Source of the DNA: Candidatus Latescibacterota bacterium
GTDB taxonomy: Bacteria; Latescibacterota; UBA2968; UBA8231
DNA length: 64,000 bases
Direction: 5' to 3'
NCBI GenBank assembly: GCA_965206595.1
Contig: OZ242214.1
Span: 3,008,001-3,072,000 of the forward strand
Part shown: positions 1 through 48,044 of the stretch, piece by piece
Numbering within the stretch: position 1 is the first letter of the stretch
Layout: each line of letters starts with the position of its first letter
The notes under the pieces: model-generated
Told to the model about the DNA's origin: nothing
Databases searched by the model: none
What the model saw: the letters and a program-made list of their open reading frames with translations, nothing else
Program-made: the position numbers and the translations under genes

Positions 1-1
1 T

Positions 2-3000
2 TCACCCTATAAGTGGACGCTTCAGGCAATAAATATTCCGGAGGCGATTGTCCCGGTCCGAGAGCGCTCACCACAGGTGCGCGAATCTATTTATCAAGTA
101 GTCAGTAGGTTCCAAGATGGGAGCGTCTCTAGCTATGAACAGATCACTGATGCCCACCTTGCTGCCATTAATACGTTGTTTGTGAATAATATCCATGCTT
201 CAGACTCTCCCCTGCAATCTAACGATCTTGATGGTCTCACCGGTTTGGAAAGCCTTGAACTAAGATTGGGGGACGGATTTTCAGAGAGAAGTCTTCTGCC
301 AGCAGGGATTTTTGCAGGACTCACTTCGCTGAGCCGGTTCAAGTTCCTCTATTATGAAAACATATACGGTGATGATCCTTCGCTTTATCCGATTCTACCG
401 ATTCCCGTAGGGCTGGAGAAGGTTGGCGAAGGTCAGTTCAAGGCGGTTGTACACACTGGTGCGCCGTTTGACATGGACCTGCCGCTCCACATTGTGAATG
501 GGCGTATCAACGGCGGCACAATTACTATCACGATACCCAGAGGCAGCGTCGAAAGCGCGCCGTTCACCGTGACCCGCAGTCCCGGCACAACCGCTGCGGT
601 CATCGTGGACATTGAGACGTTGCCGAATACGAGTATCCCAACGAATGCCGGCTACAGCTTCTACAGATCATCCTTCCCGCTGGAAATGTTCAGCCCCTTG
701 GCGGGAGCACCCAGCCCCGTTACCGAACGCACACCGCAGGTACTCGACGCTATTGTGGCGGCAGTGCCAGAGATAATTCACGTTCACCATGATAGAGAGA
801 TAACCTACATAGTGAACGGGAGATTTACAGAAGAGACATCTAATTTCGGCCACTATGTGTCTGAGGCACACCTCGCGGCGATTACGAGTCTGGATGTATC
901 TGGGTCTAGTGGGGTCGACTTAAGCCTCGGAGGCAATTGGTTTAGTTTGCAGGGGAACGCCACAGAACTGAAACCCGGCGATTTTGATGGCCTGACCAAC
1001 CTGACAGAGCTCCGCCTGGACGACAACGAGTTGAGTGCATTGCCGGAGAACATCTTTGACCAGCTCACCAATCTGACGGAGCTCAAGCTAGACGGCAACC
1101 AGTTGAGTGCATTGCCATCCGGCCTCTTTGACCAGCTCACCAACCTGACAGAGATCTACCTAAGCAACAACCAGCTGAGTGCATTGCCAGACGGCCTCTT
1201 TGACCAGCTCACCAATCTGACCCTACTCGCCCTAAACAGCAACGAGTTGAGTGCATTGCCAGACGGCTTCTTTGACCAACTCACCAATCTGACAAGGCTC
1301 TACCTGAACAGCAACCAATTGAGTGCATTGCCATCCGGCCTCTTTGACCAGCTCACCAGTCTGGCACTGCTCAACCTGTTCGACAACCCGTTGAGTTCAC
1401 TGCAGGAGAGCGATTTTGACCATCTCATCAATCTGACAACGCTCATCCTACCCGGCAACAGCAACTCGTCGAATTCATCGCTGGAATTCAGCGGAGACAC
1501 CCCCGTCTGCGACCGCACCCCGCAGGTGCGCGACGCGATTGTGGCCGCGGTACCGGGCGTAAACAATTGTCGCGATGTGACCGAGGCACACCTCGCAGCG
1601 ATTACGGATACGGAGCTGGAGTTGTCTGGTAGTAGCATTACAGAACTGAAACCCGGCGATTTTGACAATCTCACTAACTTGAGAGGGCTCGGCCTAGTCG
1701 ACAACCAGTTGAGTTCATTGCCGGAGGACATCTTTGAATATCTCATCAACCTAGAAGCCCTCGGCATAGCCAACACCCAGTTGAGTTCATTACCAGACGG
1801 ACTCTTTGAAAATCTCACCAACCTGAGAACGCTCGGCATAGGCAACAACACCCAGTTGAGTTCATTACCAGACGGACTCTTTGAAAATCTCACCAACCTG
1901 AGAACGCTCAGCCTAAGTGGCAACCAGTTGAGTTCATTGCCGGAGGGACTCTTTGAATATCCCACCAACTTGTTATTTCTCGACCTAAGCGGCAACCAAT
2001 TAAGTTCATTACCGGAGGGACTCTTTGACAAAGTTACGCTAGCGCTCGACCTAAGCGACAACCAGTTGAGTTCATTACCTCACGGCATCTTTAAGGGCAT
2101 TTTCGTCGAAATTCCCGACTTTACAGGGTTCTTCGCGTTCGGCACCCCGCTGGGTCCATTTCCAGAGGACGCCTATAACGAACTCGCCGACCCGACGACT
2201 CTCGACCTGACCGGCAACCCAGGTGCCCCCCTGCCTCTCACCGTCTCACTGGAGAAGGTTGCGGATGGTCAGTTCAAGGCGGTGGCCCCTGCCGGTGCGC
2301 CGTTTGATATGGTCCTGCCGCTCACCGTTACCAACGGCAGTATCAGCGGCGGTACAACCACGATCACAATTCCCGCCGGTAGCGTCGAAAGCGAGACACT
2401 CACCATAACCCGCACCTCCGGCACGACATTCGCCGTTACCGTGGATATCGGAACGTTGCCGGAGTTGCCCAATAGCCATAGCGGCTATGCTCTCGTCAAA
2501 TCCGCCGACCTGCCGCTGGTGTTCACGGAATTCGGGGGCATGCTCTCGGTCTGCGAGCGCACGCCGCAGGTGCGCAATCAGATTTGGGCAAGAACGGGTA
2601 TGAGCGATTGCCGTGACATAACCGAGGCACACCTCGCGGCGATTACGAGGCTAGATAAATATGGTGGGGGTCCGGGTTATGGGGACATTACAGCACTGAA
2701 ACTCGGCGATTTTGATGGTCTGACCAACCTGCGAGGGCTCTACCTAAACGACAACCAGTTGAGTTCGTTGCCAGCGGGCCTGTTTGACAACCTCACCGCG
2801 CTGGAAACGCTCAACTTGCACGACAACCAGTTGAGTTCGTTGCCAACGGGCCTGTTTGACAACCTCACCGCGCTGCAAGACCTCGACCTAAGCAACAACC
2901 AGTTGAGCACGCTGCCAGCGGGCCTGTTTGACAACCTCACCGCGCTGGAAACGCTCGACTTGCACGACAACCAGTTGAGTTCGTTGCCAACGGGCCTGTT

Positions 3001-4390
3001 TGACAACCTCACCGCGCTGGAAACGCTCAGCATAAGCAACAACCAGTTGAGTTCGTTGCCGGCGGGCCTGTTTGACAACCTCACCGCGCTAGATTTCCTC
3101 CTCATAGGCAACAACCAGTTGAGCACGCTGCCAGCGGGCCTGTTTGACAACCTCACCGCACTGCAACGGTTCGACCTAAGCGGCAACCAGTTGAGTTCAT
3201 TACCAGACGGACTCTTCGGCAACCTCACCGCGCTGGAAGAGCTCTACCTGTACGACAACCAGTTGAGTTCGTTACCAGCGGGCCTCTTTGGTAATCTCAC
3301 CAACCTGCCAGAGCTCTACTTGCACAACAACCAGTTGCGCTCGTTACCAGCGGGGCTGTTTGGCAATTTCACCAATCTGGGTATCGAGCTGGGCAACAAC
3401 CAATTGAGTTCGTTACCACCTGGCCTCTTTGGTAATCCCACCAATCTGGGTATCGGCCTAAGCGGCAACCAGTTGAGTTCATTACCACCGGGCCTGTTTG
3501 GTAATCTCACCAATCTGACATACCTCGACCTGACCGACAACCTTATAAACCCACTGCCCCTTACCGTCTCACTAGAGAAGGTTGCTGAAGGTCAGTTCAA
3601 GGCGGTGGCACCAACCGGCGCGCCTTTCGAACTCGTGCTCCCGGTCAGTGTCTCAGGTCCCGGTGCGATCGTAGGGGGCGCAACCACTGTCACCATTCCC
3701 CCAGGAAGCCTGGAAAGCGCCCCGCTCACCTTTTCCCGCACGCCAGGTACCACGGCTGCGGTCACCGTGGATATAGGCACGTTGCCGGGGCTGCCCGCTT
3801 CTCATTCTGGCTATGCCCTTGTCAAATCCGGCGACCTGCCGCTGGCGTACTATGTCGGGGCCGAAGGAAGGCAGGGGGGAGCCGAAGGAAGGCCGGGCGG
3901 GCAAGTTTCCACCGATTTCAACAGCGACGGCAAGACCGATTTCGTCGACTTCTTCCTCTTTGCCGATGCCTACGGCGGCACCGACGCAAAGTTTGACCTC
4001 GACGGCAGCGGCACGGTGGACTTCGTCGATTTCTTCAAATTCGTCGATGCCTTCGACCAGCCGGGCCAAGCCAAGCTGCTGGCACTGGCCCGGGAGATGC
4101 TCGGATTGCCTGCCGGCCCGCAACTCCAGCAGAACGCCCCTAATCCGTTCAACAGCGAGACCGTCATCTCATGGTTCCTGCTTGAACCGGGTCCGGTGCG
4201 ACTGGAAGTGTTCGCCCTGACCGGACAGCGGCTGGCCGTCCTGCACCAGGGTCCGGAGAAGGCGGGCCTCCACCGCCTTCACTGGGACGGTCGCGACGAC
4301 GAGGGCCGCCCCCTGGCCAGCGGTGTATACCTGTACCGGCTGGTGACAAACGAAGCTGTGTTGACCCGCAAGCTCACCCTGCTGCGTTGA
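2..4390 (+). CDS. Large secreted leucine-rich-repeat protein, 5' partial: capped LRR arrays, three Ig-like spacer domains, paired EF-hand/dockerin-like motif, FlgD-Ig/T9SS-like C-terminal domain
   Basis: The frame is open from base 2 (SPYKWTLQ...VRERSPQVRESI), so the GTG at 77 is probably internal. 24-aa repeats LTxLxxLxLxxNQLSxLPxGLFDx. Four caps of the form (E/D)R(T/S)PQV...(D/E)AHLAAI. Three copies of an LEKVxxGQFKAV...GAPF domain. DFNSDGKTDFVDFF and DLDGSGTVDFVDFF; ends PNPFNS...GVYLYRL...TRKLTLLR. Confidence 0.9.
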   Translation, partial: SPYKWTLQAINIPEAIVPVRERSPQVRESIYQVVSRFQDGSVSSYEQITDAHLAAINTLFVNNIHASDSPLQSNDLDGLTGLESLELRLGDGFSERSLLPAGIFAGLTSLSRFKFLYYENIYGDDPSLYPILPIPVGLEKVGEGQFKAVVHTGAPFDMDLPLHIVNGRINGGTITITIPRGSVESAPFTVTRSPGTTAAVIVDIETLPNTSIPTNAGYSFYRSSFPLEMFSPLAGAPSPVTERTPQVLDAIVAAVPEIIHVHHDREITYIVNGRFTEETSNFGHYVSEAHLAAITSLDVSGSSGVDLSLGGNWFSLQGNATELKPGDFDGLTNLTELRLDDNELSALPENIFDQLTNLTELKLDGNQLSALPSGLFDQLTNLTEIYLSNNQLSALPDGLFDQLTNLTLLALNSNELSALPDGFFDQLTNLTRLYLNSNQLSALPSGLFDQLTSLALLNLFDNPLSSLQESDFDHLINLTTLILPGNSNSSNSSLEFSGDTPVCDRTPQVRDAIVAAVPGVNNCRDVTEAHLAAITDTELELSGSSITELKPGDFDNLTNLRGLGLVDNQLSSLPEDIFEYLINLEALGIANTQLSSLPDGLFENLTNLRTLGIGNNTQLSSLPDGLFENLTNLRTLSLSGNQLSSLPEGLFEYPTNLLFLDLSGNQLSSLPEGLFDKVTLALDLSDNQLSSLPHGIFKGIFVEIPDFTGFFAFGTPLGPFPEDAYNELADPTTLDLTGNPGAPLPLTVSLEKVADGQFKAVAPAGAPFDMVLPLTVTNGSISGGTTTITIPAGSVESETLTITRTSGTTFAVTVDIGTLPELPNSHSGYALVKSADLPLVFTEFGGMLSVCERTPQVRNQIWARTGMSDCRDITEAHLAAITRLDKYGGGPGYGDITALKLGDFDGLTNLRGLYLNDNQLSSLPAGLFDNLTALETLNLHDNQLSSLPTGLFDNLTALQDLDLSNNQLSTLPAGLFDNLTALETLDLHDNQLSSLPTGLFDNLTALETLSISNNQLSSLPAGLFDNLTALDFLLIGNNQLSTLPAGLFDNLTALQRFDLSGNQLSSLPDGLFGNLTALEELYLYDNQLSSLPAGLFGNLTNLPELYLHNNQLRSLPAGLFGNFTNLGIELGNNQLSSLPPGLFGNPTNLGIGLSGNQLSSLPPGLFGNLTNLTYLDLTDNLINPLPLTVSLEKVAEGQFKAVAPTGAPFELVLPVSVSGPGAIVGGATTVTIPPGSLESAPLTFSRTPGTTAAVTVDIGTLPGLPASHSGYALVKSGDLPLAYYVGAEGRQGGAEGRPGGQVSTDFNSDGKTDFVDFFLFADAYGGTDAKFDLDGSGTVDFVDFFKFVDAFDQPGQAKLLALAREMLGLPAGPQLQQNAPNPFNSETVISWFLLEPGPVRLEVFALTGQRLAVLHQGPEKAGLHRLHWDGRDDEGRPLASGVYLYRLVTNEAVLTRKLTLLR
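2720..3545 (+). repeat. Intragenic tandem array of about 12 LRR-coding units (72 bp)
   Basis: Units start at 2720, 2792, 2864, 2936, 3008, 3080, 3152, 3224 and 3296, then continue as shorter units. Near-constant scaffold aaccagttgagttcgttgccagcgggcctgtttgacaacctcaccgcgctg. Similar arrays at about 960-1450 and 1640-2100. Confidence 0.95.
3911..4390 (+). repeat. Shared C-terminal cassette (EF-hand pair + CTD); other copies at about 6893-7372, 10475-10751 (CTD only) and 15950-16429
   Basis: 3911 accgatttcaacagcgacggcaagaccgatttcgtcgacttcttcctctttgccgatgcctacggcggcacc is nearly identical to 6893. All four copies end in TRKLTLLR-stop. Confidence 0.95.
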
Positions 4391-4519
4391 TCCTACCGAC
4401 CGGAACAGAGTTGACAGGGCCTTATGGAACGATGTCATCTGTAATCCATAGCGGTGAACCGAGATAAGGAAAAACGTTATGAGGATGGACGCAAAGCGAT
4501 ATTACAGGAGCATAACCCT

Positions 4520-7372
4520 ATGAAAACCCCCGCTCTGCATTCCGCCTCTTTGGCGTGGCTCGCTCTCGTGCTCTCGACGCCGGCGGTCGGCCATGCTTCG
4601 CCTCCGTCGTTCCCTGAGATGCCATTCCGCCAGCAAATCGATTTAGAGCAGCGGGAGCGCGATCATACTCCCCGCCCTGCCGCCAAGCGGCTGGCGGAGG
4701 CGGACGCCGGCGACCCCCGCACCGTGCGCCTCATCTACTTCCTGCCCAACGATCGCTCGTTCAACTCCGACGTGGTTGACTCGATGAAAACGGGGATTCG
4801 CCGCATTCAGACCTTTTATAGCGAGCAGATGGAGGCCAACGGCTATGGCAATAAAACTTTCCAGTTTGAAACCGACGATCAGGGCGAACCGATGGTTCAC
4901 CGCGTCGATGGTCCATACCCCGAGAGCGAATATTTTTTCGCTTACCGCCTGGTTGGTGCGGGTAATGTGAAGCGGGATGTGGGACAGGCGTTTGATTTCA
5001 GGAGGAACATTTTCTTTATCGTTGTTGACCATAGCACACGTAACCTCTGGGACAATGTCAGAGGTATCGCAGGCCACTTGTCAAAAGAGGGCGGATTTGC
5101 GCTGGTTCCCAGCGACTTCGACTTCGCAACGGCAGCCCATGAACTGGGACATGCCTTCGGCTTGCAGCACGATTTTCGCGATGGTGTCTTCGATGGTGGG
5201 TACATCATGTCCTTTGGCCAAGGACCGGATCGGTTATCGGCGTGCAGTGCCGGGATTTTGGCCGTGCATCCCTACTTCAATCCCGATGTCCCGACTGCGG
5301 TGCAAACCCCACCGACTATCGACCTCGTTTCCTCACTCAGATTTCCAGCCGGCTCAACGAGCTTTTCCGTTCAACTCAGAGTCAGTGTGAATTTCTTCGT
5401 CGATGTTTTTCGCCCTGAGCTGAAGCCGCCGGATCTTCATCAGGTATCTCTATTCGTCAAGACAGGGGGAACAGATGCCGCAGCCGGATTCCGTGAAGTG
5501 AAATTCTGTCATGTATTGTCGGGTGTACAAGATACTGTTGTTGTATTCGATTATGACGGGATTATTCCGTCTGAGGGATCTGCGAGTCTATCCACCTCCG
5601 TTACACAGTATATTGCCGTAGAAGCGATCGATACCAAGGGAAATGTGCGCCAAGCGCACTTTCTCCTGGCGGAAGATTCGCCACATCATATCACTACTTT
5701 GAAGGGGCCTACCTCGCCGGAGGTCTATGGTGCGAAATTCTCACCCGATGGGACCCTCCTTGCCGTACACGCATCCTCCGGGATCGCAATATGGGACGCG
5801 GCGACGCGAACCTATATCGCTGGGCTAAGTCAGCGGAGCGTCTCTTCGGTCGTGTTTTCGCCCGACGGGACCCTCCTCGCTTCCGGGTCTTACAGCCCTT
5901 CCGAGGCCAATATCAAGCTGTGGGACGTGGCGACCCGAACCCTCGTCGCCACCCTGGAGGGACATTTGGGGGGACCTACGGGGGTGCTTTCGCTGTCGTT
6001 TTCGCCCGATGGAGCCCTCCTCGCTTCCGGGTCAGGGGATCAAACGATCAAGCTGTGGGATGTGGCGACACGAACCCATCTCGCCACCCTCGAAGGGCAT
6101 ACAAGTCATGTCTATTCTGTTGCATTTTCACCCGATGGGACGCTCGCTTCCGGGTCGCGGGATGGCACGGTCAAGCTGTGGGATGCGGCGACCCGAACCA
6201 GTGTCGCCACCCTCGAGGGAGGTACGGGCCGGGTTCTCGATGTGTCGTTTTCACCCGATGGGACGACCCTTGCTTCGAGCACTGATGGCGCGATCCTGCT
6301 GTGGGACATGGCGACCAGAACACAGACCGCCACCCTGGATGGGCGTGGCGACGCGTCGTTTTCCGCCGATGGGTCGACCCTTGCCTCCGGGGGAGGAGGG
6401 TACACGGTTCTGTGGGATATGGCGACCAGAGAACAGATCGCCACGCTCGGGCATGCGGGCCGGCTGAGGGATCCCGACGGGTATTGGGTCAACGGGGTGT
6501 TCTCGCCCAATGGGGCTCTGCTCGCTTCAGTATCAATAGACGGGGTACAACTGTGGGATGCGTCGGCGTGGACGCGAACCCCGCCTCATACACTGGTGAA
6601 GATCTCCGGCGATGACCAGCAGGGTACGCCCGGTGCCGCATTGGCGAACCCGTTTGTCGTTGACGTGAGAGATCAGGGCGGTTCGGGGTATGCCGGGGCG
6701 GCCGTCACCTTTGCGGTCACTGCCGGGGGTGGTTCGCTCAGTTCCTCGGCGGAGACGACCGATGCCAGCGGCCGGGCCGCCAGCACGCTGACCTTGGGGA
6801 GCCAGCCGGGGACGAATACCGTGGAGGTGAGCGTGGCCGGGCTTACGCCGGTGACTTTTACCGCCGTCGGGCAAGCTAGCGGCCAAACGGCGACCGATTT
6901 CAACGGCGACGGCAAGACGGATTTCGTCGACTTCTTCCTCTTTGCCGATGCCTACGGCGGCACCGATTCCCGCTTCGACCTCGACGGCAGCGGCACCGTC
7001 GATTTCGTCGACTTCTTCAAATTCGTCGATGCCTTCGACCAGCCGGGGCAAGCCAAGCTGCTGGCACTGGCCCAGGAGATATTCGGGCTGCCTTTGGAAA
7101 CCCAGTTGCAGCAGAACTGGCCCAATCCGTTCAACAGCGAAACCGTCATTTCCTGGTTCCGTTTGGAGCCGGGTCCGGCGCGACTGGAGGTATTCTCCCT
7201 TACCGGGCAGCGGGTGGCGGTCCTGCGCCAGGGTCGGGAGAAGGCGGGACGCCACCGCGTTCACTGGGCAGGCCGGGACGACGAGGGCCGTCCCATGGCT
7301 GGCGGGGTCTACCTGTACCGGCTGGTGACGGCCGAAGGCGTCCTGACCCGCAAGCTCACCCTGCTGCGGTGA
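4520..7372 (+). CDS. Secreted metzincin-type zinc metalloprotease + WD40 propeller + bacterial Ig domain + EF-hand pair + CTD
   Basis: ATG at 4520 after AGGAG; signal peptide. HELGHAFGLQH (HExxHxxGxxH) with a YIMS Met-turn. WD40 repeats FSPDGTLLASGS...IKLWDV. ISGDDQQG Big-like domain; TRKLTLLR end. Confidence 0.9.
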   Translation: MKTPALHSASLAWLALVLSTPAVGHASPPSFPEMPFRQQIDLEQRERDHTPRPAAKRLAEADAGDPRTVRLIYFLPNDRSFNSDVVDSMKTGIRRIQTFYSEQMEANGYGNKTFQFETDDQGEPMVHRVDGPYPESEYFFAYRLVGAGNVKRDVGQAFDFRRNIFFIVVDHSTRNLWDNVRGIAGHLSKEGGFALVPSDFDFATAAHELGHAFGLQHDFRDGVFDGGYIMSFGQGPDRLSACSAGILAVHPYFNPDVPTAVQTPPTIDLVSSLRFPAGSTSFSVQLRVSVNFFVDVFRPELKPPDLHQVSLFVKTGGTDAAAGFREVKFCHVLSGVQDTVVVFDYDGIIPSEGSASLSTSVTQYIAVEAIDTKGNVRQAHFLLAEDSPHHITTLKGPTSPEVYGAKFSPDGTLLAVHASSGIAIWDAATRTYIAGLSQRSVSSVVFSPDGTLLASGSYSPSEANIKLWDVATRTLVATLEGHLGGPTGVLSLSFSPDGALLASGSGDQTIKLWDVATRTHLATLEGHTSHVYSVAFSPDGTLASGSRDGTVKLWDAATRTSVATLEGGTGRVLDVSFSPDGTTLASSTDGAILLWDMATRTQTATLDGRGDASFSADGSTLASGGGGYTVLWDMATREQIATLGHAGRLRDPDGYWVNGVFSPNGALLASVSIDGVQLWDASAWTRTPPHTLVKISGDDQQGTPGAALANPFVVDVRDQGGSGYAGAAVTFAVTAGGGSLSSSAETTDASGRAASTLTLGSQPGTNTVEVSVAGLTPVTFTAVGQASGQTATDFNGDGKTDFVDFFLFADAYGGTDSRFDLDGSGTVDFVDFFKFVDAFDQPGQAKLLALAQEIFGLPLETQLQQNWPNPFNSETVISWFRLEPGPARLEVFSLTGQRVAVLRQGREKAGRHRVHWAGRDDEGRPMAGGVYLYRLVTAEGVLTRKLTLLR

Positions 7373-7482
7373 TTGGATCGGCCAACCTTGAGCATTGAGA
7401 ATTAGCCTAAAACGTCCATCCGGACGAAAGCAAATTGTGAGCCCTCGAGTTGAAGAACTCGATCAAAAAAAGGAGGAATAAG

Positions 7483-8055
7483 GTGAAAATACTCCATTTG
7501 TTCAGCGTCGTCTCCCTATTGTCCTGTGTCTTGCAGGCGGGATGCGACTATGCCAAACCCACCGATGTCGAGGAGGTGGACAAGAAAGTAGAGACACTCC
7601 GGCAGCAGTTGAACCAACAGGAAGAGGAACTACAGAAGCAGTTGAACCAACAGGAAGAAGCGGTGCAGGAGCGATTGAGCAATTGGGAAATTGTATTCGC
7701 ACTGATCGGCGCCAATTTTTTGGATATGGGGCAAGTAAGATCTGAATCTCCCACACACGGAGTACTCACAACCAACGAGGTTCACGTCTACGAATTCAAC
7801 CAGGATGAGAACCGTGAAGTGACCATTGTTCTGGACGGATCGGGTGACATTGTTTTTTCGCTTCTTCGAGAAATGAACGACGGTAGTTTCGATAACTTCG
7901 GCCGCTTCGATCAGGACTTTGATTCAACATACAGAACCGGTTGGGACGCTTCTATTTTCAATGGGACATTGGAAGCGGCCACATACCTGATCATCGTTGA
8001 GGCATATTCCTTTGAAGAAGAGCTTCAATACCGGATTTCTTTTGCCTTTCCGTAG
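7483..8055 (+). CDS. Hypothetical lipoprotein with a short coiled coil and a beta-sandwich (PPC-like) C-terminus
   Basis: GTG at 7483 after AGGAGG; lipobox-like LQAGC; 33-bp duplication at 7603-7668 (QLNQQEE x2). Confidence 0.7.
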   Translation: MKILHLFSVVSLLSCVLQAGCDYAKPTDVEEVDKKVETLRQQLNQQEEELQKQLNQQEEAVQERLSNWEIVFALIGANFLDMGQVRSESPTHGVLTTNEVHVYEFNQDENREVTIVLDGSGDIVFSLLREMNDGSFDNFGRFDQDFDSTYRTGWDASIFNGTLEAATYLIIVEAYSFEEELQYRISFAFP

Positions 8056-8150
8056 CCCAACCGAGGCGGCCCTTGGAACGACGCTTGTATATGTTGAATA
8101 GAGCGATAGCCCTGGCAGTTCCATGTAAACCCCGTTGACAGGAGCTTCTT

Positions 8151-10751
8151 ATGAAAACCATGATTTTCATTCGAAACAAATTCCTTTCGGTTCTCGTGGT
8201 GATTTTGATGATATGTGCCCTGCAGGACCATTGCTACGCCGGGGGGGTCTTTGACGTCGTTGGTGACGTCGTTGGCGGCGTTGGTGATGCGGTCGGGGCT
8301 GTTGGTGATGCGGTCGGGGCTGTCGGTGAGGCCGTCGGGGCTGTCGGTGAGGCCATCGGAGTAGTAGTCGGTGCAGTCAGCCTCGTCGCCGGAGTGGTCG
8401 ACTTAAGCGTCAGCCTTGTTACCACTCTCATCGGGCATACGGATTGTGTTTTGACCACGGCTTTCAGTCTGGATGGGGCGACTCTGGCGAGTGGGAGTTG
8501 CGACTTGACAATTCGTTTATGGGATGTCTTCACCGGGACAACCACCTTCATTTTGCGGCATGCGTCTCCCGTTTCGAGTACCGCCTTCTGTCCCCTCGAT
8601 GGCTGTATGCTGGCCAGTGGGACCGAGGATGGGAAAATACACCTGTGGAACCCTGACACCGGGAAACTCAACACCACTCTCACGGGACATACTGCGAGTG
8701 TCTTGAGCACGGCCTTCCATCCCTTTCAGGGCGTCTTTGCCAGTGGAAGTGCGGATTCCACCATCCGTCTTTGGGATGCGAATACCGGTGCCCACCTGCA
8801 GACATTTACCGGACATGCGGATAGTGTTTTAGGTGTCGCCTTCCATCCCGCGGGGGCCTTGTTGGCCAGTAGCAGTGCGGACGCCACTATCCGTCTTTGG
8901 GATGCGAGAACGGGTATTCTCCGGCGTACACTCACCGAACATACGGGGCCCGTAGCAAGCGTCGCTTTCAGTCCCGCCGGAGCCGTGCTGGCAAGCTGCA
9001 GTGCAGACAGCACAGTGCGCTTGTGGGACCCAGCCACTGGCGAACACCTGGCAACTCTCCACCACCCTTCTCCTGTCTTGAGCGTGGCCTTCAGTCCCGC
9101 CGGGGACCTATTGGTCAGTGGGAGTACAGACGGCACCGTGAATTTGTGGGACCCCCTCACCCGGAACCTCAAAGGCGCCCTTGGGCATGGGTCCCCTGTA
9201 ATGAGTGTGGCTTTCAGTCCTGATGGCGGCCTGCTCGCCGGCGGGACCGAGGAGGGTCTGGTCCTCCAATGGCAATTCGTATCCGCACCCAAAATTACCA
9301 GATTCCTCAACAACGACTTCAACACTCTGGAGGCCGCGGGGAACGAATATCCCGAGGGTCTCTGGTCTGACGGCACTACCATGTGGGTTGCAGACTACTC
9401 GGATGGAAAGATTTTCGCCTACGGCGTGAACACCAAGGACCGGGTCCCCGCAAAGGACTTCAACACCCTGAGAGCCGCTGGTAACTCTTTTCCCGGCGGC
9501 CTCTGGTCCAACGGCACTACCATGTGGGTGGCAGACTACCAGGATGGAAAGATTTACGCCTACGGCGTGAACACCAAGGACCGGGTCCCCGCAGCGGACT
9601 TCAACACCCTGGAAGCCGCTGGAAATGAACATCCCCGCGGTCTCTGGTCCGACGGCACTACCATGTGGGTGGCGGACTACTCGGATGGAAAGATTTTCGC
9701 CTACGACATGAACACCAAGGTCCGGGTCCCCGCAAAGGAAATCAACACCCTGGTAGCCGCAAATAACTACACTCCCCGCGGTCTCTGGTCCGACGCCACC
9801 ACCATGTGGGTGGCGGACTACTCGGATGGAAAGATTTTCGCCTACGACATGAACACCAAGGCCCGGGTTCCAGCAAAGGAAAACAACACCCTGAAATCCG
9901 CTGGAAACCGCTATCCCCAAGGCCTCTGGTCCGACGGCACCATCATCTGGGTGGCAGACGGATCGGATGACAAGCTGTATGCATACAGTCTGCTGGCCGG
10001 TCCCAGCTACGACAGCCCCTGCGCTACAGGAGGGGTGGTGCCCAACGCGGCAAGCAACCCGAGGCTGGTGTCCGACTGCGAGGCGCTGCTGGCGGTTGGG
10101 GACTCCCTGGCGGAAACGGGTACACTGAATTGGTCGGAAAGCATTTCCATCGGCAGCTGGGACGCCGTGACCATCGGCGGAACTCCTCCGCGGGTAACAC
10201 GGCTCGAGCTCGCAAGCAGAGGTTTGACCGGGACGGTACCTGCGGAGTTGGGACGCCTGACCAACCTGAAAGCCCTGAAGCTCTCCGGAAACAGGCTGTC
10301 CGGGACCATACCTGCGGAGTTGGGACGCCTGACCAACCTGAAAGCCCTGAGCCTTTCAAGGAACCAGTTGACCGGGTGCATTCCTGCCGGCCTGGGCGAT
10401 GTGCCTGAGAATGACCTGAAAAAGCTACATCTTCCCAATTGCGGTCCAGCGCCAAAAATGATCGGCTTTCCTGTCGAAACGCAGTTGCTGCAGAACGTCC
10501 CCAATCCATTCAACAGCGAAACCGTTATCGCCTACTCCCTGCCTAAACCGGGTCCGGCGCGACTGGAGGTATTCGCCCTTACCGGGCAGCGGGTGGCGGT
10601 CCTGCATCAGGGACCGCGGCAGGCCGGGTACCACCGCCTTCACTGGGACAGCCGCGACGACGAGGGCCGGCCCCTGGGCAGCGGCGTCTACCTGTACCGC
10701 CTGGTGACGGGGGAGGGTGTGTTGACGCGAAAACTCACCCTGCTGCGATAA
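8151..10751 (+). CDS. Secreted chimeric repeat protein: Gly/Val heptad repeat + WD40 propeller + five 47-aa repeats + plant-type LRR + CTD
   Basis: AGGAG RBS and signal peptide; VGDAVGA repeats; about 7 WD40 repeats; DFNTLxAAGNxxPxGLWSDGTTMWVADYxDGKIxAY x5; LTGTVPAELGRLTNLKALxLSxNxL; PNPFNS...TRKLTLLR. Confidence 0.9.
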   Translation: MKTMIFIRNKFLSVLVVILMICALQDHCYAGGVFDVVGDVVGGVGDAVGAVGDAVGAVGEAVGAVGEAIGVVVGAVSLVAGVVDLSVSLVTTLIGHTDCVLTTAFSLDGATLASGSCDLTIRLWDVFTGTTTFILRHASPVSSTAFCPLDGCMLASGTEDGKIHLWNPDTGKLNTTLTGHTASVLSTAFHPFQGVFASGSADSTIRLWDANTGAHLQTFTGHADSVLGVAFHPAGALLASSSADATIRLWDARTGILRRTLTEHTGPVASVAFSPAGAVLASCSADSTVRLWDPATGEHLATLHHPSPVLSVAFSPAGDLLVSGSTDGTVNLWDPLTRNLKGALGHGSPVMSVAFSPDGGLLAGGTEEGLVLQWQFVSAPKITRFLNNDFNTLEAAGNEYPEGLWSDGTTMWVADYSDGKIFAYGVNTKDRVPAKDFNTLRAAGNSFPGGLWSNGTTMWVADYQDGKIYAYGVNTKDRVPAADFNTLEAAGNEHPRGLWSDGTTMWVADYSDGKIFAYDMNTKVRVPAKEINTLVAANNYTPRGLWSDATTMWVADYSDGKIFAYDMNTKARVPAKENNTLKSAGNRYPQGLWSDGTIIWVADGSDDKLYAYSLLAGPSYDSPCATGGVVPNAASNPRLVSDCEALLAVGDSLAETGTLNWSESISIGSWDAVTIGGTPPRVTRLELASRGLTGTVPAELGRLTNLKALKLSGNRLSGTIPAELGRLTNLKALSLSRNQLTGCIPAGLGDVPENDLKKLHLPNCGPAPKMIGFPVETQLLQNVPNPFNSETVIAYSLPKPGPARLEVFALTGQRVAVLHQGPRQAGYHRLHWDSRDDEGRPLGSGVYLYRLVTGEGVLTRKLTLLR
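9315..9990 (+). repeat. Five tandem 141-bp (47-aa) intragenic repeats
   Basis: Unit starts at 9315, 9456, 9597, 9738 and 9879, with high DNA identity between units. Confidence 0.95.
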
Positions 10752-10867
10752 TGGATCCCAACCCTGAATCCGGGCCACAACCGGGATTCTTACGAAGTCG
10801 CCGTCCTTGAAAGCCCAAGCGGAGAAACCAAAACAGGATCGCACGCATTGCGCGCCGCGGCTTCCAA

Positions 10868-13800
10868 ATGAGACGGAGAGTTACAGAAGTGAAGCATAGC
10901 CCCAAAAAAGCCTTCGTTCTTCATTCCGCTTTCTTTGCGATAGCCAGCTTCACTCTCTTGCGGCCGCCGGCCGCCCATGCTTCTCCCCCGCCGGCCGACA
11001 GCGTGCATTTCTGCGCCTTCGACCACGAGCAGTGGCGGCGTGATCATCCGCGGCCTGCGGCCAAGCGGCTGGCGGACCTGAACGTCGGCGAACCCCGCAC
11101 CGTGCGGATGATCTACTTCCTGCCGAACGACTGGCCGTATCGCGCCGTGGTGGTCGATTCGATGAAGACGGTGATCAAGCAGAGTCAGAGCTTCTATGCC
11201 GAGCAGATGCAGGCGCACGGCTACGGCGACTGGACCTTCCGCATCGAGACCGATGCCCAGGACGAGCCGCTGGTGCATCATGTCGATGGCCAGCATCCCT
11301 TCAGCCATTACGACAACACCCTCGGTACCGCGGTGGTTGCCGAGCTTGAGCAGACGTTCGATCTCGATGCGAACATCTACTTCATCGTACTCGGCACCGA
11401 TGCCCTTCGCCAGGGGAACGGTCAGCCTGCGGGTGGAGTCGGGAGCCGACGGACGAAGAACGGCGGTCATCTGGTGGTACCGGATAGATTCGGTTTCTTC
11501 ACGGTGACCCATGAGCTGGGGCATACCTTCGGATTGTACCACGATTTCAGGGACAACCGATTCATCATGTCGTATGGATTTGATCAGCGCGGGGTCCTGT
11601 CTGCGTGTGCTGCCGAATTTTTGTCCGTGCATACGTACTTCAATTCCGCTATCCCGATTGCAGAGGGGCAGCCGCCAACCGTCGAGATCATTTCGAGCAC
11701 CAGATATCAGCCCGGCACAACAAGCGTCCCGGTTCAGCTCCAGGTCAGGGATTCGGAGGGGCTTCACCAGGTGAGCCTGATTGGCAACGCGAAGCCGTGT
11801 CGTGGATTGGCGGGTGAAGGAGATGCCGTCGTCGAGTTCGACTATGATGGCAGTTTTTGGGCAGGTGGCTTTACGAACCTTTCTGACCAACCCAGGCATC
11901 ACATGCTCATTGTCGCCGTCGATGGCAAAGGGAATGTGAGCGAGACGAATTCGTTCCTTACGGAAATTTCGCCCTACAAGATCGCTACACTGAGGGCGCA
12001 TATGGATTGGGTCAATGCAGTGGCGTTTTCGTCCGATGGAACCCTCGCCTCCGGGTCAGGATCATATGAGTTGAATGATGCATCGGTCAGGCTGTGGGAC
12101 GTGGAGAGCCGGAAAGAAATCGCCATCCTCGACGAGTATACGTCTGCAGTTACTTCGGTAGCCTTTTCCCGCGATGGGACGCTCGCTTCCGTGTCTTTTT
12201 TTGATGGCATCAAGCTGTGGGACGTTGTGCTTCGAAAGGAGATTGCCACCCTGAAGGGGAGGTCTCCCGTGGCAATTTCGCCCGATGGGTCCCTGCTCGC
12301 CTCTCCCTCAGAGTCGGGGGACCACACGATCAAGCTGTGGGACATGAGAACCCGACGGGAGATCGCCACCTTCGTAGGACATACAAGACAGATCAATGCG
12401 TTAGCGTTTTCGCCCGACGGGACCCTTCTCGCTTCCGGGTCAGGGGAAGATGATTCCCCTGATAAAGAAGACCTGACGGTCAGGCTTTGGGACGTGGCCG
12501 CACAAACAGAAGTCGCCACTCTGAGAGGACATTCGGATGGGGTCTGGGCGGTAGCGTTTTCCTCCAATGGCACTCTCCTGGCTTCGGGAGGGGGGTGGAA
12601 TGACTCCACCGTCAAGCTGTGGGACGTGGCGACACAAACAGAAGTCGCCACTCTGAGAGGGCATTCGTTTGGGGTCCGGGGGGTAGCGTTTCCTCCCGAT
12701 GGCGCCATCCTGGCTTCGGGAGCAGGGGACTTCACGGTCAGATTGTGGGACATGGGGAGTTTAAAAGAGGTCGCCACTTTCATAGAGCATACATGGACGG
12801 TCAAGTCAGTGGCCTTTTCCCCCGACCGGACCACCCTTGCATCCGGATCAATGGATAGTACGGTGATTTTGTGGGATGTGTCCGAGTGGACGGGACCCCG
12901 TCCTTTCGCCCTGGAGATCATCTCCGGCGACGGACAGCAGGGTGCCCCCGGGGCGGTTCTACCCCATCCCTTGGTCGTGGAAGTGCGGGACCAGTATGGC
13001 GATCTCCTGCCGGAGGCCACCGTCACCTTCACGGTCACGGCCGGCGAAGGCAAGCTGAGCGGCCGCTATTCAGTGGAGCATACCACCACCGATGCCGACG
13101 GCCGGGCAGAACTGACCCTTACCCTGGGCCCCAACCCGGGGCCGAACATCGTGGGCGTGTCCCTTGGCGGGCGCGAGCTGGAGACGTTTCATGCCAAGGG
13201 CGTGGGCACCGCCGTGGCGGAGTTGGAGGGGGACTACCGGACCTGGCATCTGCCCGAGGGGGCGACGGTGCGTCTGGGTAAGGGCGCTCTGGGGGAAAGC
13301 GACCGGGCGGTGGCCCTTTCGGCGGATGGCCGCTGCCTGGCCGTGGCCAGCGCCATCGGGGTGTGGCTGTACGAGGCGGCCACGTCCCGGGCCCTGGCAC
13401 TGCTGCCGACGGAGAGTGCGGTCCATTCGGTAGCGTTCTCCCTCGACGGCACCTTGGCCGCCGGGTTGGATAACGGCCAGGTCGAGCTGTGGGAGGTGGA
13501 GACCGGGGAGCGGATCGGCACCCTGAGGCATGCGAATTGGGGAGGGGTCACTGTGACGTTCTCGCCGGATGGGACGAGGCTGGCTTCCGGGTCATTGGAG
13601 CAGGTCATCAAGGTGTGGGATATCGAGACCAGACGCGTGGCCGGCACCTGGGAGGTGGCGCGGGACAGCGATTCGTATTGGGACATCCCCGTGGCCTTCT
13701 CGCCGGACGGGTCGAGGCTGCTCTCGGGATTTCAGGACGGCACGGTGCGGCTGTGGGACGTGGCGACACAGACAGAGGTCGTCACGCTGGAAGGGCACAC

Positions 13801-47998: not shown

Positions 47999-48044
47999 AG
48001 TAGTGAGAGATTTGTGAAGCGAGTAGTGAGAGATTTGTGAAGCG
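47999..48044. repeat. Perfect 23-bp tandem direct repeat
   Basis: agtagtgagagatttgtgaagcg at 47999-48021 and 48022-48044. Confidence 0.95.

What the first reader, a model, noticed from the sequence alone, without database searches (positions are those of the whole stretch)
2720..3545. VLR-like LRR array: constant DNA scaffold with hypervariable concave-face codons
Seen: the 72-bp units are near-identical even at synonymous sites in the NQLSxLPxGLFDNLTAL part. The beta-strand segment differs in every unit (RGLYLND, ETLNLHD, QDLDLSN, ETLDLHD, ETLSISN, DFLLIGN, QRFDLSG, EELYLYD, PELYLHN), and some units look like patchworks of their neighbours. Known: these x positions form the ligand-binding concave surface of LRRs, and the 24-aa consensus closely resembles lamprey/hagfish variable lymphocyte receptor modules. 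Inference: concerted evolution of the scaffold with diversifying selection or gene conversion at binding positions, i.e. a bacterial variable receptor.
Basis: partly seen in the sequence, partly recalled or inferred. Interest (0 to 1): 0.72.

Follow-up and report, generated by a model that had tools for sequence, protein, structure and literature searches.

The report
Recombining LRR block, sponge-symbiont secreted protein
This is one of several leucine-rich-repeat binding modules in a large exported protease-like protein of a sponge-dwelling bacterium; its repeat frame is kept uniform and its binding-face residues and repeat number are reshuffled by ordinary recombination, not by an antibody-like system.

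Summary
Window 2720-3505 holds 11 in-frame LRR units (nine of 72 bp, two of 69 bp) plus a capping unit. The scaffold DNA is 92% identical among units 1-6; the strand segment is 62% identical. The five most variable codons are exactly the x positions of LxxLxLxxN.

The array is block 3 of a 1812-aa protein: signal peptide, M12-like zincin domain, repeated cap-LRR-Ig-like modules, a calcium-binding-like repeat and a T9SS sorting domain. The genome is a 7.05-Mb sponge-associated one whose relatives are labelled Latescibacterota or Poribacteria.

Five further full or long alleles of this gene carry 7-11 units. One allele is 98-100% identical on both sides but has a different block 3.

Recombination between units is supported: PHI p=0.0005, a 13-nt tract shared by units 10 and 11, and one scaffold change present in 4 units of one allele.

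Positive selection is not shown. At 1:1 orthologous units, dN at x positions over dS is 1.44 (95% CI 0.69-2.60).

I found no donor cassettes and no nearby reverse transcriptase. VLRs are not the closest LRR relatives.

Verdict: a germline, population-level variable LRR module, and a new member of a known kind (eukaryote-like LRR proteins of sponge symbionts). This scan has already reported the same pattern on other DNA.

The parts
1..4390 (+). Last 1462 codons of an 1812-codon gene. Its start codon lies 1048 bases upstream of the window, at genome C1:3006952. The upstream part encodes a signal peptide and an M12/reprolysin-like zincin domain with an HExxHxxGxxH motif.
   Evidence: ORF list. 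Extension in the whole genome. Reprolysin_5 34.2 bits against a cut-off of 27.
992..1459 (+). LRR block 1: six 24-residue units plus a partial unit. It is collinear and conserved in the orthologues.
   Evidence: x-position residue differences from L016 are 5 of 30.
1670..2098 (+). LRR block 2, about six units. One unit has been gained or lost relative to L016.
2540..2719 (+). Helical N-terminal cap of block 3, with two cysteines. It has no Pfam family.
   Evidence: Model helices at residues 9-19 and 29-34. No Pfam hit at E<=0.1 for window 2159-2720. The motif is conserved in 41 aligned homologues.
2720..3505 (+). The finding: 11 LRR units (U1-U9 of 72 bp, U10-U11 of 69 bp). The scaffold is homogenised and columns 5, 6, 8, 10 and 11 are variable.
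   Evidence: One short beta-strand per unit at columns 6-8 in the model.
3506..3562 (+). C-terminal capping LRR unit (U12) leading into the Ig-like domain.
   Evidence: The junction is conserved in all 6 alleles.
3554..3827 (+). Ig-like beta-sandwich spacer domain after block 3. The same domain follows the other LRR blocks. It has no Pfam family.
   Evidence: Strands at model residues 339-429, pLDDT 91-97. No Pfam hit. Internalin A aligns over 482-515 columns, including this domain.
3900..4060 (+). Two Asp-rich calcium-binding-like (EF-hand or dockerin-like) repeats.
   Evidence: Only a weak EF-hand_1 hit, E=0.025. The assignment rests on the sequence pattern seen and is an inference.
4139..4375 (+). 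T9SS type A C-terminal sorting domain.
   Evidence: TIGR04183 29.3 bits against a cut-off of 23. FlgD_ig 27.9 and 30.3 bits against 27. A PorU sortase is present in the genome, 617.6 bits against a cut-off of 420.

Best explanation
Block 3 is a ligand-binding LRR solenoid inside a modular protein. The protein is exported by the type IX secretion system, carries a metzincin-like domain, and belongs to a sponge-associated bacterium.

The peculiar DNA pattern comes from ordinary homologous recombination acting on a tandem array of 72-bp units:
- Unequal crossing-over adds and removes whole units.
- Short-tract gene conversion keeps the structural scaffold nearly identical. It also moves strand segments between units, so units become patchworks.
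- Recombination with diverged alleles or paralogues can replace the whole block.

The five solvent-exposed x residues per unit are weakly constrained and evolve at about the neutral rate or somewhat faster, so the concave face differs from unit to unit and from strain to strain.

The result is a germline-encoded binding module that varies between lineages, not one diversified within a cell line.

Shown here: the anatomy, the export signals, the recombination signals, and the allele-to-allele variation in unit number and in the whole block.

Inferred: that the block binds a host (sponge) or particle-surface ligand and so aims or tethers the protease-like domain, and that variation is useful to the bacterium.
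For: Anatomy:
- LRR_8 scores 370 bits against a cut-off of 27.
- The model has mean pLDDT 92.7 and pTM 0.89, with one strand every 24 residues at unit columns 6-8.
- Top fold matches are LRRTM2, designed LRRs, internalin A, SHOC2 and Leptospira LRR proteins.

Export:
- Signal peptide.
- T9SS sorting domain above its cut-off.
- PorU in the genome.

Habitat:
- Relatives are labelled Ca. Latescibacterota or Poribacteria.
- The two listed runs with an uncoded organism label are sponge metagenomes, and they hold only a small share of the stretch.
- LRR and WD40 proteins with Por sorting domains are described for Poribacteria (PMC3909097, passages read).

Recombination between units:
- PHI p=0.0005 on 25 informative sites of U1-11.
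- U1/W1, U7/W6 and U6/W4 have 0 of 48 scaffold differences, yet 5, 4 and many differences respectively in the 21 strand bases. These include synonymous two-base Leu codon changes.
- In G000, U10 and U11 share a 13-nt strand tract. It covers 9 of 9 and 6 of 8 of the sites at which they differ from their L016 orthologues.
- In L016 the same AAC-to-ACC change at column 12 occurs in 4 of 10 units, against 0 of 11 in G000 and no Thr at that position in any of the 11 units of the close allele P0124.

Variation between alleles (unit counts, each plus a cap):
- G000 11, L016 10, P0124 11, G020 7, P0137 9, P0142 8.
- L016 and P0124 are 274 of 275 identical after the block, but 91% identical within it.
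- P0142 matches G000 at 886 of 900 N-terminal residues and 262 of 262 C-terminal residues. Across residues 1201-1550 the match is 175 of 272.

Rate at x positions: dN 0.192, against scaffold dN 0.040 and non-LRR dN 0.080.
Against: - No ligand, binding or protease activity has been tested.
- Only three alleles were available as DNA, so the rate estimates rest on 38 x codons.
- The PHI signal can be inflated by correlated changes within codons, and it vanishes for U1-9 at the widest window (p=0.35).
- Allele sequences come from metagenome assemblies. The partial allele P0005, which lacks one unit, lies on an 11-kb contig that ends inside the array and could be an assembly collapse.
- Within-population variation could not be assessed. 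The runs are available only as short contigs that fragment in the repeats.
Confidence: 0.75

Rival explanations
1. The same recombining array, but the concave-face codons are under positive diversifying selection in an arms race or host-specificity race. It would be a true variable receptor at population level, as proposed for high-internal-conservation repeats of fungal NLRs.
For: - Paralogue comparison: dN(x) 0.85 against scaffold dS 0.18 in U1-6.
- Orthologue comparison, block 3: dN(x) 0.31 against gene-wide dS of about 0.16-0.23.
- 1:1 units: point estimate of the ratio 1.44.
- 39 distinct strand heptads among 50 units from 6 alleles, against 24 distinct scaffolds.
- x residues are rich in D, N, Y, E, H and R.
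- Block 3 is more variable at x positions than blocks 1 and 2: 43% residue differences from L016, against 17% and 31%.
Against: - The 95% bootstrap interval is 0.69-2.60 and P(ratio<=1) is 0.16.
- The paralogue contrast is confounded by scaffold gene conversion.
- Synonymous divergence is also raised at the Leu codons inside the strand (dS 0.40 against 0.18). This points to different coalescence or conversion histories of the two segments and not only to amino-acid selection.
- Some conversions homogenise strands (U10/U11), and some added units are exact copies (P0015 and P0137).
Confidence: 0.3
2. Programmed or somatic diversification: assembly from donor cassettes as in lamprey VLRs, or mutagenic retrohoming by a diversity-generating retroelement.
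For: - Modular 24-residue units with variable concave positions resemble VLR modules in a general way. VLR chains match at E 2e-43 to 3e-37, and hagfish VLR A29 superposes at rmsd 1.3 over 201 columns.
- Variable codons at columns 8, 10 and 11 are mostly NNC. This superficially recalls diversification of AAC codons, a point recalled from general knowledge of such retroelements.
Against: - blastn of the block against the whole 7.05-Mb genome finds only three places: the gene itself, one intact paralogous array 22 kb upstream at no more than 76% identity, and a 43-nt match.
- The genome has two reverse transcriptase hits, 0.37 and 3.1 Mb away. One has a group II intron maturase domain and the other sits next to a transposase.
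- NNC is explained by the C-ending codon preference of a 64% G+C genome.
- Contigs of the best-holding run match the reference with 0 differences over seven listed pieces. This is weak evidence, because contigs drop rare variants.
- Differences between alleles are whole-unit indels and tract exchanges, not adenine-specific changes.
Confidence: 0.03
3. An artefact: the near-identical units, or the differences in unit number, come from mis-assembly of a repeat.
For: - The partial allele P0005 ends inside the array on an 11-kb contig.
- Short contigs of four runs break throughout the array.
Against: - The window lies in a single 7.05-Mb contig.
- The reading frame is intact over 1812 codons.
- Alleles with 7-11 units lie on contigs or chromosomes of 0.7 to 6.5 Mb.
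- Contigs of run X4 reproduce 2542-2777, 3000-3137 and 3287-3487 without a difference.
- The model folds as a regular solenoid.
Confidence: 0.03

Closest known systems
Eukaryote-like LRR repeat proteins of sponge symbionts (Poribacteria and others)
   Same: - The host genome is sponge-associated.
- The protein is secreted, has LRR Pfam domains, and sits beside WD40 paralogues that carry the same Por/T9SS sorting domain. This is as described in PMC3909097 (passages read).
- More than 1400 database relatives at E<=1e-20. The few that carry a source name are simply called leucine-rich repeat proteins.
   Different: - The passages I read count domains only. They do not describe homogenised scaffolds, unit-number polymorphism or block replacement.
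- A four-term search found 31 papers holding at least 3 of the terms. Among the 12 listed, none that mentions sponge symbionts contains 'positive selection'.
High-internal-conservation repeats of fungal NOD-like receptors (WD40, ANK, TPR)
   Same: - Near-identical repeats.
- Repeat-number polymorphism.
- Exchange between repeats.
- Variation focused on the binding surface (PMC4986451, passages read).
   Different: - That paper found no LRR motifs in fungal NLRs.
- Its criterion of more than 85% identity over at least 100 residues is not reached here: mean residue identity is 0.75 in U1-6.
- The protein here is extracellular and bacterial, not an intracellular NLR.
- Positive selection is not demonstrated here.
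Listeria internalins (cap, LRR, Ig-like inter-repeat domain)
   Same: - The same three-part module: helical cap, LRR solenoid, Ig-like domain.
- Internalin A chains align over 482-515 columns.
- It is a bacterial surface or secreted protein with a host-binding role. That role is established knowledge cited in PMC3909097.
   Different: - TM-scores are only 0.29-0.48, at about 12 A rmsd and 21-23% identity.
- Units here have 24 residues, not the 22 of internalins (the figure of 22 is recalled).
- The module is repeated several times in one protein, fused to a zincin domain, and exported with a T9SS sorting domain.
Lamprey and hagfish variable lymphocyte receptors
   Same: - 24-residue 'typical' LRR units with an NQL..LP.G.F consensus.
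- Variation at the same concave positions.
- VLR chains are significant sequence and fold matches.
   Different: - VLRs are not the nearest LRR relatives: at least 10 other molecule types rank higher.
- No donor cassettes.
- Pfam reports no LRRNT or LRRCT cap at E<=0.01.
- No evidence of somatic assembly. Variation lies between lineages.

Membership tests
Typical-class leucine-rich repeat domain (Pfam LRR_8 / LRR_4) | LxxLxLxxNxL motif repeated with a period of about 24 residues, and Pfam score above the gathering cut-off | tested here: met
   11 units in frame. LRR_8 370.2 bits against a cut-off of 27, and LRR_4 194.1 against 27.
Typical-class leucine-rich repeat domain (Pfam LRR_8 / LRR_4) | Curved solenoid with one short beta-strand per unit on the concave side | tested here: met
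   Model pLDDT 92.7, with strands every 24 residues at unit columns 6-8. At least 500 PDB matches at E<=0.001; all chains listed are LRR proteins.
Eukaryote-like LRR proteins of sponge symbionts | LRR protein with export signals, encoded by a sponge-associated bacterium | tested here: met
   Signal peptide. TIGR04183 above its cut-off. Relatives are labelled Latescibacterota or Poribacteria. The two listed runs with an uncoded organism label are sponge metagenomes and hold a small share of the stretch; the other organism names are coded.
Variable lymphocyte receptor system | Incomplete germline gene flanked by many silent donor LRR cassettes | tested here: not met
   The gene is complete at 1812 codons. 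blastn finds no further copies in 7.05 Mb beyond the gene itself, one intact paralogous gene 22 kb upstream (at most 76% identity) and a 43-nt match.
Variable lymphocyte receptor system | Different assembled receptors in different cells of one individual or clone | not testable with these tools
   Only short contigs of the runs could be laid. They fragment in the array and drop rare variants.
Variable lymphocyte receptor system | LRRNT and LRRCT cysteine caps and a stalk | tested here: not met
   Pfam gives no LRRNT or LRRCT hit at E<=0.01. The model shows a helical two-Cys cap and an Ig-like domain instead.
Diversity-generating retroelement target | Reverse transcriptase and template repeat close to the variable repeat | tested here: not met
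   RVT_1 hits lie only at C1:6113267 and C1:2642807. One of them has a GIIM domain. No template-like copy was found.
High-internal-conservation repeat regime (fungal NLR type) | More than 85% identity between repeats over at least 100 residues (criterion in PMC4986451) | tested here: not met
   Mean residue identity is 0.75 (U1-6), 0.72 (U1-9) and 0.69 (U1-11). Scaffold DNA alone is 0.919.
High-internal-conservation repeat regime (fungal NLR type) | Repeat-number polymorphism between alleles, and exchange between repeats | tested here: met
   7 to 11 units in 6 alleles. PHI p=0.0005. Shared tracts.
High-internal-conservation repeat regime (fungal NLR type) | Positive selection at binding-surface positions | tested here: inconclusive
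   dN(x)/dS 1.44, 95% interval 0.69-2.60, from 38 x codons in 8 orthologous unit pairs.
Internalin family | Cap, 22-residue LRRs and Ig-like inter-repeat domain | tested here: inconclusive
   The three-part architecture is present and InlA aligns over the whole model, but TM is only 0.29-0.48. The units have 24 residues. I treat it as an analogue, not as a member.

The most novel reading that the evidence does not exclude
Block 3 would be a swappable specificity cassette of a large family of T9SS-exported zincin proteins. Recombination within the array, and with other alleles or co-resident symbiont lineages, would generate a population-wide repertoire of concave faces under diversifying selection. 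These faces would aim the protease-like domain at changing sponge or prey surface molecules. That would be a bacterial, extracellular counterpart of the high-internal-conservation repeats of fungal immune receptors, here built on LRRs, which the fungal NLR survey did not find.
Probability: 0.25. Interest if true: 0.6.

Novelty: new member of a known kind. Interest (0 to 1): 0.35.

Why it matters
Sponge symbionts are known to be rich in eukaryote-like repeat proteins, but how these proteins change is little described. This gene gives a clear, dated example. Alleles that are 98-100% identical on both flanks differ in the number, order and binding face of the LRR units, or carry a different block altogether. 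This marks block 3 as the part of the protein most likely to determine partner specificity, and so as the sensible fragment to express for binding studies. It also warns that such arrays need long-read assemblies. It does not point to a new diversification mechanism.

Tried and rejected
- Diversity-generating retroelement: rejected.
- Donor-cassette system: rejected.
- Population variants from public runs: four runs were laid (X4, X7, X8, X1), all as short contigs of about 80-700 bases. They break inside the array and mix paralogues and related strains. Unit number, unit order and within-sample variation could not be read. The listed joints mostly carry foreign letters between the two sides and look like other LRR genes. 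A few between-run differences fall in strand segments (3167-3170, 3380-3381, 3443-3452), but 82 further differences were not shown, so I draw no count from this.
- Metagenome contig scan for more alleles as DNA: 80 loci were kept, all at 51% identity or less, and none is orthologous.
- Family-wide genome search: orthologues were found in only 2 of the 75 other genomes, so codon-based tests rest on three sequences.
- The period-216 super-repeat reported by Tandem Repeats Finder (81% matches) is no better than period 72 (80%) and was not pursued.
- The 162-codon antisense ORF at 2740-3228 is a mirror of the repeat and has no independent support.
- NCBIfam hits to T3SS LRR effectors and to a Leptospira fibronectin-binding protein are all far below their cut-offs. 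They reflect generic LRR likeness.
- Earlier notes of this scan near this place: none.
Full report
**1. What is at 2720-3545**

Tandem Repeats Finder reports an array at 2737-3511 with period 72, 10.8 copies and 80% matches. Read in the frame of the long + strand ORF, it consists of 11 LRR units and a capping unit. U1-U9 have 24 codons. U10 and U11 have 23, each with the same one-codon deletion in the strand. The capping unit lies at about 3506-3562.

- ACC (column 2), AAC (column 12) and TTG (column 14) occur in 11 of 11 units.
- CTG (column 4), CAG (column 13), CCA (column 18) and TTT (column 22) occur in 10 of 11 units.
- Columns 5, 6, 8, 10 and 11 hold 6, 6, 7, 5 and 3 different residues.

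These five columns are positions 2, 3, 5, 7 and 8 of LxxLxLxxN. They are the top five by entropy in this array and in 50 units from 6 alleles: 2.8-2.9 bits for columns 5, 6, 8 and 10, and 1.9 for column 11. The remaining columns are at 1.8 bits or less.

The synonymous uniformity is not a codon-usage effect.
- Identical-codon frequency at invariant-residue columns is 0.86 against 0.41 expected for U1-6, over 15 columns.
- It is 0.75 against 0.44 for U1-11, over 11 columns.
- The fixed codons are rare in this genome: TTG 7%, AGT 7% and CCA 12% of their families.

Scaffold DNA identity among U1-6 is 0.919. Strand DNA identity is 0.619.

**2. The gene and its setting**

The ORF runs off the window start. 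In the whole genome (7.05 Mb, one contig, 63.7% G+C) it begins 1048 bases upstream and encodes 1812 residues. Its parts are:
- a signal peptide;
- an M12/reprolysin-like zincin domain, Reprolysin_5 34.2 bits against a cut-off of 27;
- several cap-LRR-Ig-like modules, with LRR blocks at 992-1459, 1670-2098 and 2720-3562;
- two Asp-rich calcium-binding-like repeats, supported only by a weak EF-hand hit;
- a T9SS type A sorting domain, TIGR04183 29.3 bits against a cut-off of 23.

The genome encodes a PorU sortase, 617.6 bits against a cut-off of 420.

The next three genes in the window (4454-7372, 8151-10751, 10868-16429) carry the same sorting domain. The N-terminal zincin region gives 10 matches in this genome at E<=1e-50, including neighbours at window positions -4383, 4520 and 10910.

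Related records are labelled Ca. Latescibacterota or Ca. Poribacteria. The only two listed runs with an uncoded organism label are sponge metagenomes, and they hold a small share of the stretch. Kamke et al. (PMC3909097, passages read) describe abundant LRR and WD40 proteins with Por sorting domains in Poribacteria.

**3. Structure**

An AlphaFold2 model of window 2540-3850, built with a 41-sequence alignment, has mean pLDDT 92.7 and pTM 0.89. It shows:
- a helical cap;
- one short strand every 24 residues, at unit columns 6-8;
- a dip in confidence (residues 283-290, pLDDT below 50) at the short unit U10;
- an all-beta domain after the array.

I had no coordinates. That the variable side chains line the concave face therefore follows from standard LRR geometry, not from a measurement.

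Foldseek ranks LRRTM2, designed LRRs, internalin A, SHOC2 and Leptospira LRR proteins first. Internalin A aligns across the whole model, but with TM of only 0.29-0.48. The first VLR is at rank 42.

By sequence, IGFALS (E 1e-94), LRRTM (3e-84), SHOC2, a Toll-like receptor and LRRC15 precede any pure VLR chain, the first being VLR A at 2e-43. The likeness to VLRs is therefore that of the general 24-residue LRR class.

**4. Rates**

Among paralogous units U1-6 (Nei-Gojobori):
- dN at x codons is 0.85;
- dS of the scaffold is 0.18;
- dS at the three Leu codons inside the strand is 0.40.

Over all 11 units the first two values are 0.89 and 0.59.

The first contrast looks like strong positive selection. 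It is confounded, because anything that homogenises the scaffold lowers its dS. The raised synonymous divergence inside the strand suggests that the two segments have different histories.

I therefore compared orthologues.
- Against L016 (88% identical over the first 640 residues), x positions of block 3 have dN 0.31. Scaffold dS is 0.16 and non-LRR dS is 0.23.
- In blocks 1 and 2, dN(x) is 0.09 and 0.26.
- Restricting to 8 unit pairs with clear 1:1 orthology gives dN(x) 0.192, scaffold dN 0.040, non-LRR dN 0.080, and dS of 0.11-0.14.
- The ratio dN(x)/dS is 1.44, with a bootstrap 95% interval of 0.69-2.60 and P(ratio<=1)=0.16.

The x positions thus evolve about five times faster than the scaffold and at about the neutral rate. 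Selection for change is possible but not shown.

**5. Recombination between units**

A PHI test written for this purpose gives p=0.0005 for U1-11 (25 informative sites, windows of 3, 5 and 8 sites). For U1-9 it gives p=0.001, 0.0075 and 0.35. Correlated changes within codons could inflate this signal.

More direct signs are these.
- The STL scaffold variant differs from SSL at several bases. It is combined with different strands in U3 and U6. The strand pairs CTA-AGC and TTG-CAC recur on different scaffolds.
- U1/W1 and U7/W6 have 0 of 48 scaffold differences but 5 and 4 differences within 21 strand bases. One of these is a two-base synonymous Leu change. The new strings recur in neighbouring units of the same array.
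- U10 and U11 of G000 share a 13-nt strand tract. It covers 9 of 9 and 6 of 8 of the sites at which they differ from their L016 orthologues, and both carry the same codon deletion.
- In L016 the conserved Asn codon at column 12 reads ACC in 4 of 10 units. It does so in 0 of 11 units of G000, and no unit of P0124 has Thr there.

Conversion therefore both shuffles and homogenises.

**6. Alleles**

Of 76 genomes of the same family, counting G000, only G078 (the genome of L016, another genus) and G020 (a third genus) have the orthologue. The two same-genus genomes reach only 51-57% identity.

The protein database adds further alleles. Block 3 lengths are:

| Allele | Block 3 length (residues) | Units (plus cap) |
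|---|---|---|
| G000 | 281 | 11 |
| L016 | 258 | 10 |
| P0124 | 282 | 11 |
| G020 | 187 | 7 |
| P0137 | 235 | 9 |
| P0142 | 210 | 8 |

P0015, a fragment, has one unit more than G020, and that unit is an exact copy of another.

L016 and P0124 are 274 of 275 identical after the block but 91% identical within it. They differ in the first six units.

P0142 compared with G000:
- identical at 886 of 900 N-terminal residues;
- identical at 262 of 262 C-terminal residues;
- 175 of 272 identical across residues 1201-1550.

In P0142 the block, its cap and the preceding Ig-like domain are of a different type. Part of that stretch matches G020. This is a segment replacement by recombination.

P0005 is near-identical to G000 and lacks unit U3. 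Its 11-kb contig ends inside the array, so it may be an assembly collapse.

**7. Programmed mechanisms**

blastn of the block against the whole genome finds only three places: the gene itself, one intact paralogous array 22 kb upstream at no more than 76% identity, and a 43-nt match. There are two reverse transcriptase hits, 0.37 and 3.1 Mb away. One has a group II intron maturase domain and the other lies next to a Mutator-type transposase.

The NNC look of the variable codons fits the C-ending preference of the genome. Contigs of the best-holding run reproduce the reference. Because contigs cannot show rare variants, within-population variation stays untested.

**8. Comparison and verdict**

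The nearest described kind is the eukaryote-like LRR proteins of sponge symbionts.

The nearest described evolutionary regime is that of high-internal-conservation repeats in fungal NLRs: repeat-number polymorphism, exchange between repeats, and variable binding surface (PMC4986451, passages read). The identity criterion of that paper is not met here. Mean residue identity is 0.75 against the required 85% or more. That survey also found no LRRs.

Internalins are the nearest bacterial architectural analogue.

In a four-term search, 31 papers held at least 3 of the terms and 12 were listed. None of the listed papers that mention sponge symbionts contains 'positive selection'. I read no paper beyond the passages named, and their supplements were not opened.

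This scan has already reported the same pattern on other DNA: e1-778291, e1-5050188, e1-5251131 and e1-551798.

I therefore file this as a well-documented new member of a known kind. It is a germline LRR binding module that varies between lineages and is shaped by ordinary recombination. Diversifying selection remains possible but unproven.

Noticed in passing
window 1-16429, and genome C1:2984145-3024400: A cluster of genes for T9SS-sorted proteins. They share one N-terminal zincin domain and differ in the repeat module behind it: LRR, WD40, or a 47-residue repeat at 9315-9959. The zincin region gives 10 matches genome-wide at E<=1e-50, four of them in or next to this window.
   Followed up: partly
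window 1-4390: The gene has 55.7% G+C against 63.7% for the genome, and it uses codons that are rare in the genome. Its orthologue is 88% identical in a different genus, while the two same-genus genomes reach only 51-57% identity with this query. The TTG codon at column 14 is also common in LRR loci of other sponge-symbiont genomes. Together this suggests horizontal exchange among co-resident symbionts.
   Followed up: partly
window 2159-2720 and 3554-3827: The helical two-Cys cap before each LRR block, and the Ig-like domain after it, match no Pfam family at E<=0.1. Yet they recur in hundreds of database proteins. This looks like an undescribed cap-LRR-Ig module family.
   Followed up: partly
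L016 (OZ253462.1), block 3: The ladder asparagine codon of the LRR motif reads ACC (Thr) in 4 of 10 units of this allele. It does not do so in G000, and no unit of the close allele P0124 has Thr there. The likely cause is spread of one change by gene conversion; a systematic sequencing error was not excluded.
   Followed up: partly
L016 (OZ253462.1), downstream of block 3: The orthologue continues past the point where the window's gene turns to its calcium-binding-like repeats and sorting domain. It adds further LRR modules and a fibronectin-III-like region (open frame 4422 residues in G078). The C-terminal architecture is therefore also plastic.
   Followed up: no
window 5994-6265 and 14458-14877: Tandem WD40-blade repeats (periods 123 and 132, 75-78% matches) in the neighbouring paralogues. 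They may follow the same regime as the LRR units.
   Followed up: no
window 47999-48044: A perfect 23-bp direct repeat, two copies, of unknown meaning.
   Followed up: no
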